A stretch of 64,000 nt of DNA from Pseudomonadaceae bacterium (GCA_024236095.1 JACKLD010000012.1:149695-213694); one strand, 5' to 3'. Shown: positions 12,001-27,000, counted from the stretch's first letter. Numbers: made by a program.

Positions 12001-15000
12001 CTTCCATATACTTCTGCAGCCTCACAATCGGGTCACGCGCCTCACGCACCCCTTCCACCTCTTCCCGTGTACGGTATTTGCTGGGGTCGCTCATGCTGTG
12101 GCCGCGGTAGCGGTAGGTGTCCATTTCCAACAGATAGGGCCCCTTTCCCTCGCGCACATGGCGCGACGCCTTTTCCACCGCGTCAAACACCGCAAACATG
12201 TCCATGCCGTCCACCTTCTCGCCGGGGATGCCGAACGGCTCGCCACGTTTGTACAGCTCGCCCGCCGCCGCACGCGGCACACTGGTACCCATGCCCCAGT
12301 GGTTGTTTTCAATAATGAACACCACCGGCAACTTCCACAAAGCCGCCATGTTGAAGGTCTCAAAGGTCTGCCCCGCATTCATCGCGCCGTCGCCGATGAA
12401 CGTGTAACATACCCGCTCCTCGCCCTTGTATTTGGCGGCAAACGCCAAACCTGCGCCAATCGGCACCTGCGCCGCCACAATGCCATGGCCGCCCCAAAAA
12501 CGCTTGTCGGGGTCAAACATGTGCATGCTGCCGCCCTTACCCTTGGAAATCCCGATGGTTCGCCCGGTCAACTCGCCCAACACCTCCTCACCAGAAAGCC
12601 CGCAAGCCAGCGCAAGCACATGACAGCGGTAGCTGGTGATGAAGTCATCGCCGGGCAGGCTCGCCAGTTTGGTGCCAATCGCCACCGCCTCCTGCCCGAT
12701 GTACAAATGGCAAAAGCCCAGAATCTCCTGCTGCTGGTACAAACTGGCGGTCTTTTCCTGAAAACGCCGCGCATACAGCATCGCCTTGTAGGCGGCCTCC
12801 AGCGTATCCGGCGTCAACCCCAGACGCTCATGCAGCGGCGCATCCTTTTCCGCCTTGGCGGGGACCTTGGCGCGCGGCTTCTTCTGCAACGGGAACGGCA
12901 GCATGATGGGCGAAGCGGCGGTGGCAAAACTGTGGCTCATGGCAAGGTTTTCTTCCGTAATTCACGCGCGCAACAGGCGCGGCCCCACCATGCCAAAAAG
13001 GCGTCATTTTACCAAGAAAATTCGTTTGTGCAGCGCAACACAAACACCCCGCCACCGCCTACCTTGCAGGCGCTTGGTCAGACATCGGTCAAGCCGCCCC
13101 AACCACCCGACGCAACGCCGCCAGCATGCCAAGGTCGAAGTGTTTGGAATGGCTCATGGTTTCCAGCGCCATTTCCTTACCCATGGCCTCGCGGTGGGCA
13201 CGGGCACTGGTCAACGCCATATAGGCGTCGGCAGCGCCCAACAGGCGTGCCATGCGGTGGATTTCGTCCCCCTTCAACCCATGGGGATAACCGCTGCCAT
13301 CCACCCGCTCGTACATCTGCTGGATAACCGCCACCACCGGCAGGTCAAACGCCACCTCGCCCAGCACACTTTGCGCTCTGGAGATATGCCCCTCAAGCTC
13401 GGCACGCTCGGCGTCCGAGAGCTTGCCCTTCTTCGCCAGCAATTCACGGGGCACCAGCAAGCGCCCCACGGCAGAGAGCTTGGCGGCGTAAAACAACGTG
13501 GCGCGCTCTCCCACCTTGAAGTGTAGGTTGTTGGCCAATTGCAAGGTCAGACGCGCCAGCTTGTCATGATGACCGGCCAAATACGGGTCGCGCGCCTCCA
13601 CCATGCGCACCAAGGCATCCATGGTTTGGCCCAACAACGCCACGCGGGTGCGGTTACGCTGGGCCATCAGATGCAGCGTCAGCGCCAGCATCAATGCCGC
13701 CAACACCCCCACCGCCAGCAATGTAATCAGGTACAGGCCGGGCCGGTACACGTCCATCAGCGCCAAGGCATCATGGGCACGGTATTCCTGCAAAACCGCA
13801 AACGGCGTGCCGGCAATCGGCCGAACATCAGCAAAGGTGCGGCTGGCATCCACCACACTGGGCGCAATGGTTTTTCCGCTATGCAACTCAGCCAGCAAGT
13901 TATCCAACCCCATCGCCAACGGCACGGTGCTGGCCGGACCCACCACGCTCAGTTTGCCGCCTTCTTCCTGCAACAGCGCGGTGCGCTCGCCCACACGGTC
14001 CAGCGGCGTGCGCGCCACCAGCTCGGTCAACTTGGCTCCAACCGGCACACTCACCCACAAACTCCCCACCATGGCGGCATCGGTGCCTTCCTGCGTGGGG
14101 GCCTTGATGGGCCGCAGCACATCCATCACCACCCGCGCTCCGTCACGCCGCAGCGGCAACACCGCACCTTGCCCCTGCGCGGCACGCTGCAACACCTCCG
14201 GACGGTTCACCAACTCGGCGGGCATCGGCCCGAAACTCACCAAGGCATTGCCGGTGCGGTTCAACACGTACACCGAGGCAAACCCGTTCCGCGCCGCAAT
14301 ATCCTTCACCATTTGCTGCATGTACGGCGCTTGCGCCTGCAACGCTTCAGCCATCTCTCCGTTGCCGGTGCCGCTGCCAAGCTCAGCCACATACAACCGT
14401 ACCAACTGGGTCTGCGCCACCGCATCCACCACGCCTTCAACTCCCTGCAACCACTGGGAAATCACCTGCGCCCGCGCCTGCCCCTGCATCGCCACGCGGG
14501 TGGCGGTATCTTCCACCAGCTGCGCCTGACGCTGCCCCACCAGCACCTGCGACAGCAAAAAGCCCACCGCCAACGCCCCCAGCACAATCAGCATCACCCA
14601 GCCGATGAAATGCTGCATCGGCACATTGCCCCTGTACCCGTTCACCCGCCCCATATCGGCCAGCTGGGCGTAGGCCATCGGCACGGTTTGGCTTGAAACC
14701 GGCACCACTTTCGGCCCCACCATGCGCACCGGCGCGGGCTTGGCGGGAGAGGCCTTTTTGCCGCGCGCGGGCGCCACTTTTTTGGCAGGCACCTTGGCAG
14801 CCTTGCGGGCCACGTTCTTGGCGGGCTTGACGGTTTTACGGGTGGGTTTGCGTGGGGCCATGGCTCTTATCTTTTTGTCGGATTAACAAACACCCAGCGG
14901 GTGGTCTTATTCACCGCATAGTACGGACGATACTGCAAAACCTGCTTGTGCGGCAAGGGCTTGGTGGCCAAATTGTCCAGAATCCAATAGGTATCGGCAT

Positions 15001-24000: not shown

Positions 24001-27000
24001 CGGTCAGGTGGTCTTTACACCGGCCTCCGGCTTTACCGGTACCGCCACCTTCACCTACACCGTGAAGGACAGCTGCGGCGCCACCGATACCGCCACGGTC
24101 ACGGTCAACGTCACCAACACCCCGCCGGATGCCCGCGACGACAACGCTGGCACCATTCCGGCCGGCGGATCCGTCACCACCAACGTACTGGCGAACGACA
24201 CCGATGCCGAATGCACCCCCGGCATCCACGTCATCTCGGCCACGGCCAACCCGGCCCAAGGTACGGTGACGGTCAACGCCGACAACACCATCACGTTCCA
24301 CGCGGCAACCGGTTTCAGTGGCACCGCCACCTATACCTACACCATTGCCGATGGTTGCGGCGGCACCGACACCGCCACGGTCACCGTGGTTGTGGAAGCG
24401 GCGCCCCCGCCGCCCCCGCCTCCCCCGCCGGTGAGCCCGATCGTCATCGACCTGAACGGCGACGGCATCCACACCATTGCGGCCGCCGACAGCCATGCGC
24501 AGTTCGACCTGTTTGCCGACGGCACCCCCGAGCACACCGCATGGTTCAGCGGCAACGACGGGATTCTGGTCCGCGATGAGAACGGCGACGGCATCATCAA
24601 CGACATCAACGAGATGTTCGGAACCGACAACCCCGACAGCAACGGCTACGAAACCCTGCTGGCCGAGATGGACAGCAACGGCGATGGCGTCATCGATGCC
24701 AATGACGAAGGCTTCGAACAACTCCAACTGTGGGTGGATGCCAACGAAGACGGCGTCACCGACGCGGGCGAGCTGCACAGCCTTGCCGACTTCGGCATCG
24801 TCAGCATCAACGCCACCCCCGTGGCCGACTACAACCAGCTGACCGATGACAGCTTCATCAGCCATACCAGCACCGTCACGCTGGAAGACGGCAGCACACT
24901 GGAAAGCGCCGACGTGTGGTTCCACACCGCCAACGACGCTACCATGGATACCGTGCTCAACGGCGGCAACGAAGGCGACAACGTGGCCGATGCCGCTGCC
25001 ATCCCCGCCACCGACAACGGCGGTGATGCAGGCTACACCGGTACGCTGGGCGGCGAACAACTGGTTGTGGACGCCCCGCAACCGGTGCTTCACGACTAAG
25101 TGCTCACACGCAAGGGGGGTCAAGGGGGCGAAAGCCCCCTTGCGCCGTTAGGCGTCATTCCAAGGAGCACGGCCCACGGGAAGAGAGAATACCCCCAACA
25201 TCTCCGCCGCGCGCAACTTGGAACCCAGCTCAGGTGCATCACAAGGCCCACAAGCAAACCCAAGTATTCCCCACATGACTCACTTCTTTTTGCTTGCCAA
25301 GCCGCCAACATCTTGGCATAAGGCGGCTGAAGCGCAGGGCACCCCCCTGCCCTCACCTGCTTGCGGCATGGGGCCGTGGGCGAATCCTTCCTCCATGCAG
25401 GAAGGGGAACCAAAGGAAGGAGTGACGCCCATGGCGTTTTACGAACTGACCTACGTGCTGCGGCCCGACGTGCCGACCCAACACGTGGATGCCACCACCA
25501 ACAAGGTGACCGACGCGATCAAAAAGGCCAAAGGCAAGGTGGTGAAGACCGAACAGTGGGGCCTGCGCACGCTGGCCTATCCCATCAAGAAGCACAAAAA
25601 AGGCTACTACACCATGCTGGGCCTCTCGATGCCCGGTGAAGGCCTCGCCGAAGTGGAAAACATGCTGAAGCTGTCGGAAGACATCATCCGTTTCATGACC
25701 GTGAAGGTGGAAGACCTCGGCAAGGAACCCAGCGCGATCATGAAGGCCAAGGCCCGCGAAGCCGCCGCCGAAGATTTTGCCGCCTAATTCAAAGATTCTG
25801 TAAGGAGATACCACCATGGCAATGGAACAACCCCAAGCCCCGCGCAAGAAATTCGCGGGCAAAGACCGCGCCGAAGGCGACAGCAAAGGCGGCCGCTACC
25901 AACCCAAACTGCTGGGCAAGGCCTACTTCCAGCGCAAGAAGGGCTGCCCGTTTTCCGGCCCCAAGGCGCCGAAGATCGACTACAAGGACGTGCGCCTTCT
26001 GCAACGCTACCTCAGCGAATACGGCAAAATGCTGCCCCGCCACACCACTGGCGTGTCGGCCATCAAGCAACGTGAGTTGGCCACCGCCATCAAGCGCGCG
26101 CGCATGTTGGCCCTGCTGCCGTTTGCCGCCACGGTGAGCGAGAAAGACGAACGCCGCGCCCAACGCGCCCGCGAACGCGGTCCTAGCGACCGTACCGACC
26201 GCGCGCCCCGCGCCCCCCGCAACCAAGATGACGCCGCCAAGGCCGAGTAAGGGAGAGATATCATGGCAAACATGCAAGTGATTCTGCTGGAAGGCCTGCA
26301 CGGCATCGGCCGCGTGGGTGAAGTGGTGAAGGTAAAGGCCGGCTTTGCCCGCAACTACCTGCTGCCGCGCAAACTGGCACTGCTGGCCAACAAGGACAAC
26401 GTGGCCGAAGTTGAGAAGCAAAAGGCCGAACTGGAGGCGAAAAACAACGCCGCCAAAACCGAGGCGACCAAGCAGGCCGCCAAGTTTGAAGGCCTGACGC
26501 TGGTGCTCAGCCGTCACGCGTCTGAGACCGGCCAACTGTACGGCAGCCTTAAGGCCCGCGATTTCGCCGAAGAGCTGTCCCGCAAGAACCTGAAGGTGGA
26601 AGCCAGCCAAGTGCTGCTGACCGACTCGGTGAAGGCGGTGGGCGACCACAGCATCCGCGTGGCCCTGCACCCCGAGGTGGTGGTGACCGTGCCGGTAACC
26701 GTGGAACGCCAAACCGATATGTAAAATAGCGTTTCTATATTAGTATGTTAGATGATAGAAATGGGCCCTTCGGGGCCCTGTTTATTAAAAAACCGCCTTG
26801 CATAGCCCCTTACGCCGAAGGCGTCATTCCAGCCCCGCCAAGCCGAAGCAACGGCGGATGATAGACAGCTGGAACCCAATGCCCATCGTGCATGTTCCCG
26901 TACAAAAATCGTTGGCCTGCGATGGCCCTTGCAATTTCCCACCCCCGCCCCATACCCTCTCCATGCTCAAACGCCTCACCACCTTCCTCCGCCCCGCTGC

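What the first reader, a model, noticed from the sequence alone, without database searches (positions are those of the whole stretch)
13089..25099. Lap-type adhesin-release locus where the LapD slot is filled by an HD-GYP membrane protein
One locus carries six genes in a divergent arrangement. On the minus strand are the T1SS ABC transporter (16997-19183), membrane fusion protein (15506-16996), a LapG-family cysteine protease (14867-15502) and, 5 nt downstream, a two-TM membrane protein (13089-14861). On the plus strand are a TolC-like channel (19436-20761) and a 1405-aa repeat adhesin (20882-25099). In the Pseudomonas Lap paradigm, LapG is held in check by LapD, an HAMP-GGDEF-EAL c-di-GMP receptor. 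Here the LapG-adjacent membrane protein has the same topology (TM1, ~250-aa periplasmic domain, TM2, cytoplasmic output) but the output is an HD-GYP fold with no HAMP, GGDEF or EAL. An HD-GYP-based LapD analogue would be a new wiring of inside-out control of periplasmic proteolysis.
Basis: partly seen in the sequence, partly recalled or inferred. Interest (0 to 1): 0.88.

Follow-up and report, generated by a model that had tools for sequence, protein, structure and literature searches.

The report
PAS-less DvhD-type adhesin-release locus
This is a real adhesin-release gene cluster in which a catalytically dead HD-GYP membrane protein sits where LapD normally would, but that wiring was already published for Desulfovibrio DvhD in 2024 and 2026, so this locus is only a shorter variant lacking the PAS domain.

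Summary
The domain calls hold: LssB-type ABC transporter, HlyD adaptor, LapG-type protease, a two-TM HD-GYP protein, TolC, and a 10-repeat adhesin.

The claimed novelty does not hold. The HD-GYP protein's best solved-structure matches, for both of its domains, are DvhD (DVU1020) of Desulfovibrio vulgaris. DvhD was shown in 2024 to be a functional LapD analogue that binds c-di-GMP. Its structures were solved in 2026: periplasmic dCache, PAS, and an inactive HD-GYP.

The window protein has the same dead active site (HD→SA, HH→MY) and keeps most of DvhD's c-di-GMP contacts. Its LapG neighbour has an intact Ca-site and Cys-His-Asp triad. The adhesin has a conserved EPAAG cleavage motif.

What differs is that there is no PAS domain. 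TM2 is predicted to run as one helix into the HD-GYP stalk. This short form is a clade of uncultured Alphaproteobacteria-like MAGs. LapG is adjacent in 17 of 18 loci with enough flank. The published surveys required ≥80–85% coverage of DvhD and probably missed it.

Verdict: a minor new variant of a known system. Interest is low to moderate.

The parts
13089..14861 (-). DvhD-type c-di-GMP receptor, short (PAS-less) form, 590 aa
   Evidence: HD_5 only. Best PDB sequence hits are DvhD 9rbz/9rc0 (E 2e-33) and 9rc2 (E 3e-6). AF2 model has pLDDT 85. Foldseek top hits are 9rbz (TM 0.77-0.80) and 9rc2 (TM 0.80).
14610..14861 (-). Cytoplasmic N-terminal tail, aa 1-84: basic, Lys/Ala/Pro-rich, disordered
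   Evidence: 19 K/R against 1 D/E. pLDDT below 50 for residues 1-59. Length varies from 7 to 79 aa among homologues but the tail is always net basic.
14541..14609 (-). TM1 (aa ~85-107)
   Evidence: Hydropathy. Lies within helix 82-149 of the model.
13737..14540 (-). Periplasmic dCache domain (aa ~108-375), with helix alpha1 to 149 and a broken-off alpha1' at 152-162
   Evidence: phmmer hit to 9rc2, the DvhD periplasmic domain (E 3.3e-6). Foldseek match to 9rc2 with TM 0.80 over 259 columns, followed by generic dCache sensors. Weak dCache_1 hit at E 0.22.
13668..13736 (-). TM2 (aa ~376-398)
   Evidence: Hydropathy. Part of the continuous helix 367-424 in the model.
13572..13667 (-). Juxtamembrane stalk helix (aa 399-430) linking TM2 directly to the HD-GYP domain. 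It occupies the place of DvhD's PAS-plus-stalk segment.
   Evidence: The TM2-to-core distance is 9-18 aa in the short class and 145-161 aa in the PAS class. It is the most conserved segment of the protein, with mean top-residue frequency 0.90. R424, at the position of DvhD bridging-site K520, is invariant.
13092..13571 (-). Degenerate HD-GYP core (aa 431-590): HD->SA (462-463), HH->MY (516-517), GYP retained (524-526)
   Evidence: Alignment with DvhD, PmGH and V-cGAP3. Aligned positions of DvhD's c-di-GMP contacts: Y523=Y, L577=L, K582=R, Y621=Y, M646=L, R650=R, Y652=H, E668 not alignable.
14867..15502 (-). LapG/DvhG-type BTLCP cysteine protease, 211 aa, with a signal-peptide-like N-terminus (AFA|AG)
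   Evidence: PF06035 at 74 bits. Aligns to LapG structures 4u65 and 4fgo. The D125-C126-E127 Ca-site and nucleophile, H161 and D176 are present.
15506..16996 (-). T1SS membrane fusion protein (HlyD type)
   Evidence: TIGR01843, 360 bits.
16997..19183 (-). T1SS ABC transporter, LssB/LapB type, with a degenerate C39-like N-terminal domain (alternative GTG start at 19282)
   Evidence: TIGR03375, 856 bits. Weak Peptidase_C39 hit at residues 13-88.
19436..20761 (+). TolC-family outer-membrane channel (alternative start at 19370)
   Evidence: TIGR01844, 275 bits.
20882..25099 (+). LapA-like repeat adhesin, 1405 aa: 10 tandem-95/Big_9 repeats, a poly-Pro spacer, and a C-terminal Asp-rich Ca-binding and secretion region
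21059..21256 (+). Putative periplasmic retention module of the adhesin (aa ~60-125)
   Evidence: A block conserved in 11 orthologous adhesins ('AYLV.PGA...GNLRIT...EILLLDY'). The fold is not verified: the AF2 single-sequence model had pLDDT 36 and there is no PDB sequence match.
21332..21343 (+). Predicted LapG cleavage motif P151-A-A-G154 within 'VEPAAGP'; predicted scissile bond A152-A153
   Evidence: Matches the [T/A/P]AAG consensus (PMC13090378). '(V/I)EPAAG' is present in 10 of the 11 orthologues, with one variant 'QPAAG' and one 'EPAEG'.
13023..13046 (-). Terminator-like hairpin just downstream of the receptor gene (possible operon end)
   Evidence: a consensus scan only. The overall hit count was not above that of shuffled sequence.

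Best explanation
The locus is a DvhDG-type (non-canonical Lap) adhesin surface-retention system. The 590-aa protein is a short, PAS-less homologue of the Desulfovibrio c-di-GMP receptor DvhD.

Proposed mechanism:
1. The T1SS (ABC, MFP, TolC) exports the 1405-aa adhesin. The adhesin stays plugged in the TolC channel through its N-terminal retention module.
2. When cytoplasmic c-di-GMP is high, it binds the catalytically dead HD-GYP dimer of the receptor, at the canonical site and possibly at a dimer-bridging site.
3. Binding splays the stalk helices. Here these are continuous with TM2, so the change passes straight across the membrane to the periplasmic dCache domain, which then restrains the LapG-like protease.
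4. When c-di-GMP falls, the protease is freed. It cuts the adhesin at A152-A153 in the EPAAG motif, and the adhesin leaves the cell surface.

Shown here:
- the architecture, and homology to DvhD in both domains
- the dead active site with retained ligand contacts
- an intact protease triad and Ca-site
- a conserved cleavage motif
- tight, conserved synteny

Inferred from DvhD/LapD work: c-di-GMP binding, the direction of regulation, a direct receptor-protease contact, and the actual cleavage.
For: - Domain calls.
- The AF2 model has pLDDT 85, with helix 367-424 spanning TM2 and the stalk.
- Foldseek ranks 9rbz (TM 0.77-0.80) and 9rc2 (TM 0.80, 259 columns) above all other structures.
- Active site: HD->SA and HH->MY. 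M-Y is invariant in all 80 related loci. E614, D617, G618, G620, P622 and R650 are invariant. Y523, L577 and Y621 are kept. K582->R and M646->L are conservative.
- DvhD, which has the same kind of substitutions, does not hydrolyse c-di-GMP, binds it at 322 nM, and restrains DvhG in a c-di-GMP-dependent way (PMC10990149; PMC13090378).
- The LapG-like protein has the D-C-E, H and D residues.
- The adhesin has a conserved EPAAG site after a conserved N-terminal module.
- ABC-MFP-LapG-receptor synteny holds in 17 of 18 short-class loci and 27 long-class loci.
- The stalk is the most conserved region in the short class.
- No LapD, GGDEF or EAL gene is present in the 64-kb window.
Against: - Nothing biochemical is known for this protein or for any short-class member.
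- Two of the eight canonical-site contacts differ. Y652->H. E668, DvhD's guanine-specificity residue, falls in a gap or is His, so ligand identity is not secure.
- Bridging-site R569 is Glu here.
- Helix alpha1', which the published AF3 model makes the DvhG-binding element, is poorly conserved in the short class (0 of 16 columns at >=90%).
- Even for DvhD itself, a direct DvhD-DvhG contact is only modelled, not shown.
- Without a PAS domain the transmission mechanism may differ.
- The rest of the genome could not be searched for a canonical LapD or for c-di-GMP cyclases.
Confidence: 0.8

Rival explanations
1. The protein is an active HD-GYP phosphodiesterase that lowers c-di-GMP locally near the secretion system. 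It would then be an enzyme rather than a receptor.
For: It scores well above the HD_5 (HD-GYP family) threshold and keeps the GYP motif, H431 and H490 (the first and third metal-ligand His positions) and D545.
Against: The name-giving HD dyad is S-A and the HH dyad is M-Y. M-Y is invariant across all 80 related loci. DvhD, with equivalent substitutions (SQ, MN), showed no metal density and no hydrolysis with any added ion (PMC13090378). In an NJ tree the clade separates from the active enzymes PmGH and V-cGAP3 in 97 of 100 bootstraps.
Confidence: 0.03
2. The receptor responds mainly to something other than c-di-GMP. Either a periplasmic small molecule binds the dCache domain (outside-in or coincidence sensing), or the cytoplasmic ligand is a different nucleotide such as 3'3'-cGAMP or pGpG.
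For: dCache domains are typically ligand sensors, and the fold matches many amino-acid and carboxylate sensors. [quoted passage not shown] E668, which reads the guanine amino group in DvhD, is not conserved here. Y652 is His, and half of the short class has GHP instead of GYP.
Against: Most canonical c-di-GMP contacts, including the invariant R650, are retained. DvhD prefers c-di-GMP in solution. No ligand was seen in DvhD's dCache pocket. With no enzymatic output domain, an outside-in signal would have no obvious cytoplasmic target.
Confidence: 0.1
3. The receptor acts on the type I secretion machinery or on the adhesin itself, gating secretion or retention rather than acting on the LapG-like protease.
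For: In 27 of 54 long-class loci with usable flank, mostly Desulfovibrio and Mailhella, the DvhD homologue directly follows the T1SS adaptor gene. No BTLCP ORF lies within about 10 kb there, even when searched with a family profile.
Against: In the window's own class the protease is adjacent in 17 of 18 loci, separated here by only 5 nt. In the reconstituted system DvhD's effect required DvhG. In the loci lacking a BTLCP gene, the protease may simply be encoded elsewhere; L053 has a second receptor-protease pair.
Confidence: 0.07

Closest known systems
DvhD/DvhG/DvhA system of Desulfovibrio vulgaris Hildenborough (DVU1020/DVU1019/DVU1012; PNAS 2024 PMC10990149; Nat Commun 2026 PMC13090378; PDB 9rbz, 9rc0, 9rc2)
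   Same: - Gene set and order: T1SS ABC-MFP, then a BTLCP protease, then a two-TM receptor, with TolC and a large adhesin nearby.
- The receptor has a periplasmic dCache domain (TM 0.80 to 9rc2).
- Its HD-GYP domain has destroyed HD and HH metal motifs but keeps the GYP motif and most c-di-GMP contacts (37% identity; TM about 0.8 to 9rbz).
- The protease has the D-C-E/H/D catalytic and Ca-binding residues.
- The adhesin has an N-terminal module followed by a [T/A/P]AAG site.
   Different: - There is no cytoplasmic PAS domain: 9-12 residues between TM2 and the HD-GYP core, against about 146 in DvhD-class proteins.
- An extra basic, disordered N-terminal tail.
- The protease has a signal-peptide-like N-terminus rather than DvhG's TM anchor plus roughly 180-aa linker. 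The paper notes that most DvhG orthologues also have signal peptides.
- The bridging-site Lys is an invariant Arg; R569 is Glu; Y652 is His.
- The adhesin is built of tandem-95/cadherin-like repeats, with no Pfam hit to a vWA or serralysin-like domain.
- The host is an uncultured Alphaproteobacteria-like MAG, not a sulfate reducer.
LapD/LapG/LapA system of Pseudomonas fluorescens (also Legionella CdgS9/LapG, Bordetella, Vibrio, Shewanella Bpf)
   Same: - The logic: a degenerate c-di-GMP-turnover domain reused as a receptor in a two-TM inner-membrane protein that controls a periplasmic BTLCP protease.
- The protease releases a T1SS-anchored adhesin by cutting at a di-alanine site.
- The T1SS, protease and adhesin components are homologous.
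   Different: The receptor is not homologous. It has no LapD_MoxY_N domain, HAMP/S-helix, GGDEF or EAL. The periplasmic domain is a roughly 268-aa dCache fold instead of LapD's smaller periplasmic LapD_MoxY_N output domain. The tryptophan-hairpin docking described for LapD-LapG is not expected to apply.
Active HD-GYP phosphodiesterases (PmGH 4mcw, PA4781 4r8z, V-cGAP3 5z7c, Bd1817 3tm8)
   Same: The HD-GYP fold, the GYP loop and the nucleotide-binding cleft.
   Different: Key metal ligands are missing (HD->SA, HH->MY), so catalysis is not expected. The domain is fused to TM and dCache segments rather than to REC or GAF domains.

Membership tests
DvhD-type c-di-GMP receptor | Two-TM inner-membrane protein with a periplasmic dCache domain | tested here: met
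   Hydropathy. AF2 model. phmmer hit to 9rc2 at E 3.3e-6. Foldseek match to 9rc2 with TM 0.80.
DvhD-type c-di-GMP receptor | Cytoplasmic HD-GYP domain with degenerate metal-binding motifs (HD and HH lost, GYP kept) | tested here: met
   HD->SA, HH->MY, GYP present. DvhD has SQ and MN.
DvhD-type c-di-GMP receptor | Conservation of the canonical c-di-GMP contacts (Y523, L577, K582, Y621, M646, R650, Y652, E668) | tested here: inconclusive
   Four are identical (Y, L, Y, R). Two are conservative (K->R, M->L). Y652->H. E668 falls in a gap or is His.
DvhD-type c-di-GMP receptor | Bridging c-di-GMP site (K520, P567, R569) | tested here: inconclusive
   K520->R, invariant in the short class. P567 is kept. 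R569->E.
DvhD-type c-di-GMP receptor | Cytoplasmic PAS domain between TM2 and HD-GYP | tested here: not met
   The linker is 9-12 aa, against 145-161 aa in the PAS class. There is no PAS hit at E<=5, while the L073 and L027 controls give PAS_4 at 1e-14 to 1e-18. The model shows a continuous helix 367-424.
DvhD-type c-di-GMP receptor | Gene adjacent to a BTLCP protease and a T1SS/adhesin cluster | tested here: met
   Holds in 17 of 18 short-class loci.
DvhD-type c-di-GMP receptor | Binds c-di-GMP without hydrolysing it and restrains the protease in a c-di-GMP-dependent way | not testable with these tools
   Needs ITC or DRaCALA, HPLC and reconstitution, as was done for DvhD.
LapD | Periplasmic LapD_MoxY_N domain | tested here: not met
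   No hit even at E<=5.
LapD | HAMP/S-helix followed by degenerate GGDEF and EAL domains | tested here: not met
   No HAMP, GGDEF or EAL hit.
Active HD-GYP phosphodiesterase | Complete set of metal ligands, including the HD and HH dyads | tested here: not met
   S462-A463 and M516-Y517 occupy those positions.
LapG/BTLCP (Peptidase_C93) | Cys-His-Asp triad and the flanking D-x-E calcium site | tested here: met
   D125-C126-E127, H161 and D176 align with 4u65 and 4fgo. PF06035 scores 74 bits against a cutoff of 27.
LapG/BTLCP (Peptidase_C93) | NCBIfam LapG equivalog score (NF045674) | tested here: not met
   96 bits against a cutoff of 320. It is a BTLCP family member but not a close LapG orthologue.
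LapA-like T1SS-anchored adhesin | N-terminal retention module followed by a [T/A/P]AAG di-alanine site | tested here: inconclusive
   PAAG at 151-154, and a conserved upstream block in 11 orthologues. The fold of the module was not confirmed.
LapA-like T1SS-anchored adhesin | Cognate LapB/LssB-type ABC transporter, HlyD adaptor and TolC encoded alongside | tested here: met
   TIGR03375, TIGR01843 and TIGR01844, all above their cutoffs.

The most novel reading that the evidence does not exclude
The PAS-less short form is a minimal DvhD-type inside-out switch. c-di-GMP binding at the HD-GYP dimer, including a bridging site marked by an invariant Arg at the K520 position, would move a stalk helix that is physically continuous with TM2. 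The periplasmic dCache domain would then be driven without any intervening PAS relay. If so, the PAS domain of DvhD is an accessory input rather than part of the core transmission path. The short form would also be the simplest tractable model for how HD-GYP receptors signal across the membrane.
Probability: 0.4. Interest if true: 0.4.

Novelty: new variant of a known kind. Interest (0 to 1): 0.3.

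Why it matters
The headline idea, an HD-GYP protein replacing LapD, is already established, so this locus opens no new question.

Its modest value is threefold:
- It extends the DvhDG-type system to a clade of uncultured Alphaproteobacteria-like bacteria. 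The published coverage-filtered, RefSeq-based surveys probably missed this clade.
- It shows the PAS domain is dispensable for the conserved receptor-protease-T1SS linkage, which narrows what the core signalling path must be.
- It offers a smaller receptor, with TM2 fused directly to the stalk, that could be easier to study structurally.

It is also a caution for the scan: architectures that look novel from the Pseudomonas paradigm may already be covered by recent work.

Tried and rejected
- **Receptor-protease complex:** I built a linker-fused, paired alignment of mature LapG plus the dCache domain from 24 syntenic loci. No interface prediction was obtained.
- **Adhesin retention module:** A sequence search of the PDB gave only chance-level hits. 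A single-sequence AF2 model was unusable, with pLDDT 36.
- **HD-GYP census paper** (Galperin & Chou 2021, PMC9017333): not held in the library.
- **First NJ bootstrap:** it timed out. I repeated it with a faster distance calculation.
- **Promoter and terminator scan:** uninformative. One promoter-like site against 2.5 expected, and terminator-like sites not above the shuffled count. Only the hairpin after the receptor gene is worth noting.
- **Canonical LapD in the window:** Pfam scans of 30 other window ORF translations found no GGDEF, EAL or LapD_MoxY_N. The rest of the genome could not be searched.
- **Active phosphodiesterase reading:** considered and rejected on the motif evidence.
- **Wrong start codon:** I considered that the 84-aa N-terminal tail might be an artefact. 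The closest homologue (69% identity) shares the tail over its full length, and the ATG lies 5 nt after the LapG stop, so I kept M1.

Full report
**1. Observation**

Pfam and NCBIfam give the following:
- 13089-14861(-), 590 aa: HD_5 (PF13487, the HD-GYP family) only, E 4.5e-32, residues 417-573.
- 14867-15502(-): Peptidase_C93/BTLCP, 74 bits against a cutoff of 27. Its best NCBIfam hit is the LapG equivalog, but well below cutoff (96 against 320).
- 15506-16996(-): HlyD-type T1SS adaptor (TIGR01843).
- 16997-19183(-): LssB-type T1SS ABC transporter (TIGR03375, 856 bits), with a weak C39-like N-terminus.
- 19436-20761(+): TolC (TIGR01844).
- 20882-25099(+): an adhesin with 10 tandem-95/Big_9/cadherin-like repeats.

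The four minus-strand genes are packed tightly, with gaps of 0, 3 and 5 nt. The receptor has hydrophobic segments at about 85-107 and 376-398, enclosing roughly 268 periplasmic residues. No HAMP, GGDEF, EAL, LapD_MoxY_N or PAS hit appears even at E<=5.

**2. What the HD-GYP protein is**

A sequence search of the PDB returned three entries of one protein as the best matches for both halves of the query:
- 9rc2 (periplasmic domain; E 3.3e-6, query residues 124-302)

These are DvhD (DVU1020) of Desulfovibrio vulgaris Hildenborough. Two papers describe it.

Karbelkar et al., PNAS 2024 (PMC10990149):
- Several genera, including Desulfovibrio, encode LapG-like proteins but no LapD.
- In a P. fluorescens strain lacking lapG and lapD, DvhD rescues biofilm and adhesin retention against DvhG in a c-di-GMP-dependent way.
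- Its cytoplasmic fragment binds c-di-GMP with a Kd of 322 nM.

Font et al., Nat Commun 2026 (PMC13090378):
- The periplasmic domain is a dCache fold.
- The HD-GYP domain binds c-di-GMP at a canonical site and at a dimer-bridging site.
- It does not hydrolyse c-di-GMP (HD is SQ and HH is MN).
- c-di-GMP splays the stalk helices.
- An inside-out model analogous to LapD is proposed.
- The supplementary neighbourhood survey already lists alphaproteobacterial homologues such as Sneathiella, Kiloniella, Fodinicurvata and Pelagibius.

A literature search found no other work on this receptor type.

**3. Membership tests on the window protein**

An AF2 model built on 47 homologues has mean pLDDT 85. 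It shows:
- residues 1-59 disordered
- a long helix 82-149 (TM1 plus alpha1), followed by a separate helix 152-162, reminiscent of DvhD's broken alpha1/alpha1'
- a mixed alpha/beta periplasmic domain
- a single continuous helix 367-424 running from TM2 into the HD-GYP stalk

Foldseek against the PDB ranks DvhD HD-GYP first (9rbz, TM 0.77-0.80, 37% identity) and the DvhD periplasmic domain next (9rc2, TM 0.80 over 259 columns, 22% identity). Other HD-GYP structures and generic dCache sensors follow.

I aligned the HD-GYP region with DvhD, PmGH and V-cGAP3:
- HD dyad: S462-A463.
- HH dyad: M516-Y517.
- GYP motif: kept.
- Canonical c-di-GMP contacts of DvhD: Y523=Y, L577=L, Y621=Y and R650=R are identical. 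K582=R and M646=L are conservative. Y652 becomes His. E668 falls in a gap or is His.
- Bridging site: K520 is Arg, P567 is kept, and R569 is Glu.

The protein therefore meets the dCache, degenerate HD-GYP and gene-context criteria. Its ligand site is largely but not fully DvhD-like.

**4. The difference: no PAS domain**

A genome-collection scan with the family alignment returned 80 loci. For each, I measured the distance from the end of TM2 to the HD-GYP core. It is 9-18 residues in L001-L020 and 145-161 residues in L021-L080, with nothing in between.

As a control, two long-class proteins were scanned with Pfam. One of them, from Sneathiella glossodoripedis, belongs to a species in the published survey. 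Both have a clear PAS_4 domain (E 1e-14 to 1e-18) in that interval. The window protein has none.

Other properties of the short class:
- About 65 full-length members in the protein database, all from metagenome-assembled genomes, mostly labelled Alphaproteobacteria.
- The core of the class (L001-L019 plus the window) is monophyletic in an NJ tree of the HD-GYP domain (78 of 100 bootstraps).
- All DvhD-like domains group together against the active enzymes (97 of 100).
- Both classes share the invariant M-Y in place of HH.
- The juxtamembrane stalk (aa 399-430) is the most conserved segment, with mean top-residue frequency 0.90 and 22 of 32 columns at >=90%. It includes the invariant R424 at the bridging-site position.

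The published surveys used RefSeq and required >=80-85% coverage of DvhD. That would probably exclude this MAG-only, PAS-less class. I could not inspect their Fig. 9b directly.

**5. Context and partners**

I searched the 80 loci with the six window proteins and with a BTLCP profile.
- Short class: 17 of 18 loci with enough upstream flank have the LapG-like gene immediately upstream. They also have ABC-MFP before it and a divergent TolC-adhesin pair. This holds down to 33-37% receptor identity.
- The exception is L020, a divergent PAS-less gene with no T1SS nearby.
- Long class: 27 loci have an adjacent BTLCP gene. Another 27, mostly Desulfovibrio and Mailhella, have the receptor directly after the adaptor gene with no BTLCP ORF in the locus.

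The window's LapG-like protein aligns with the LapG structures 4u65 and 4fgo. It has D125-C126-E127 (Ca-site and nucleophile), H161 and D176. Its N-terminus looks like a cleavable signal peptide (AFA|AG), as the paper reports for most DvhG orthologues.

The adhesin N-terminus has three parts:
- a block conserved in 11 orthologues
- a variable helix-like segment, shortened in the window
- a nearly invariant '(V/I)EPAAG' motif, with PAAG at residues 151-154

This matches the [T/A/P]AAG consensus cut between the alanines by both LapG and DvhG. The fold of the presumed retention module could not be confirmed.

**6. Is a canonical LapD present?**

Pfam scans of 30 other window ORF translations found only housekeeping genes: pyruvate dehydrogenase, Nuo complex, Lpt, SurA, RNase J, ribosomal proteins and others. 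There was no GGDEF, EAL or LapD_MoxY_N domain.

**7. Mechanism and rivals**

The best-supported reading (about 0.8) is a DvhDG-type inside-out switch:
- c-di-GMP binds the dead HD-GYP dimer.
- The stalk helices move. Here they are continuous with TM2.
- The dCache domain restrains the protease, and the adhesin stays anchored.
- Low c-di-GMP frees the protease to cut at A152-A153.

Architecture, homology, motif states and synteny are shown here. Ligand binding, direction of control, direct contact and cleavage are inferred from DvhD and LapD work.

Three weaknesses remain:
- Two ligand contacts are altered.
- Helix alpha1', the proposed protease-binding element in DvhD, is poorly conserved in the short class.
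- I could not run the complex prediction.

Rivals:
- An active phosphodiesterase (about 0.03). The motifs rule this out.
- A different primary signal, either a dCache ligand or another nucleotide (about 0.1).
- Action on the T1SS or adhesin rather than on the protease (about 0.07). The Desulfovibrio loci without a protease gene prompt this idea, but the 17 of 18 linkage in this class argues against it.

**8. Novelty and score**

The kind of system is known and has been characterised structurally and functionally. This locus is a previously undescribed, PAS-less architectural variant in an uncultured lineage. That is useful to specialists as a minimal form, but it is neither surprising nor a route to a long-standing question. 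Interest 0.3; novelty: new variant of a known kind.

Noticed in passing
window 14610-14861 (-), receptor aa 1-84: A disordered, strongly basic Lys/Ala/Pro-rich cytoplasmic tail precedes TM1 (19 K/R against 1 D/E). In 47 homologues the tail varies from 7 to 79 aa, is always net basic, and usually ends in a conserved (V/H)AY(R/K)G motif. Its function is unknown.
   Followed up: partly
L024, L034, L041-L048, L050, L055, L058-L067, L071, L077 (Desulfovibrio/Mailhella loci): In 27 of 54 long-class loci with usable flank, the DvhD homologue follows the T1SS adaptor gene directly. No BTLCP/LapG-like ORF lies within about 10 kb, even with a family profile. L053 has two convergent receptor paralogues, and only the second is next to a protease. 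These receptors may have a partner other than an adjacent protease.
   Followed up: partly
L029, L054, L072, L073, L079 (Sneathiella-type loci): A second LapG-like gene lies on the far side of the TolC gene. In L029 and L054 there is also a second receptor-like ORF, so some genomes carry duplicated receptor-protease pairs around one T1SS.
   Followed up: no
L020 9863-11404 (MAG UBA12223): A divergent PAS-less DvhD-like gene (18-aa linker) has no LapG or T1SS gene in the 10 kb on either side. It falls outside the core short-class clade.
   Followed up: no
whole window: The source MAG is labelled 'Pseudomonadaceae bacterium' (locus tag H6922_00970). All close relatives of the locus are labelled Alphaproteobacteria, Magnetococcales or Proteobacteria, so the taxonomic label looks doubtful.
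   Followed up: no
window 3600-5570: A stretch next to a T2SSE-type ATPase gene (2659-3603) has long ORFs on both strands: 627 aa on the plus strand, or 303 and 336 aa on the minus strand. None has a Pfam hit, and the coding strand is unresolved.
   Followed up: partly
window 11283-11885 (-): A 200-aa ORF with one N-terminal hydrophobic segment and no Pfam hit sits between the pyruvate dehydrogenase E1 alpha and beta genes, overlapping both by a few codons.
   Followed up: no
window 60013-63908 (-): Three adjacent genes: a carbamoyltransferase (61098-62954), an SxtJ-like protein (63144-63908) and a weak GDSL-like hydrolase (60013-61101). This may be a small modification cluster.
   Followed up: no
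window 14867-15502 (-), LapG-like aa 57 and 64: Two cysteines upstream of the BTLCP core ('RRCFADVRACPS') are nearly invariant across 24 LapG-like proteins from both receptor classes. They may form a periplasmic disulfide.
   Followed up: no
window 20882-25099 (+): The adhesin has a run of nine prolines between the last repeat and an Asp-rich C-terminal region with DxDxDG-like motifs. Two further PAAG motifs (aa 384 and 951) lie inside repeats ('TPAAGFTGT') and are probably not cleavage sites.
   Followed up: no
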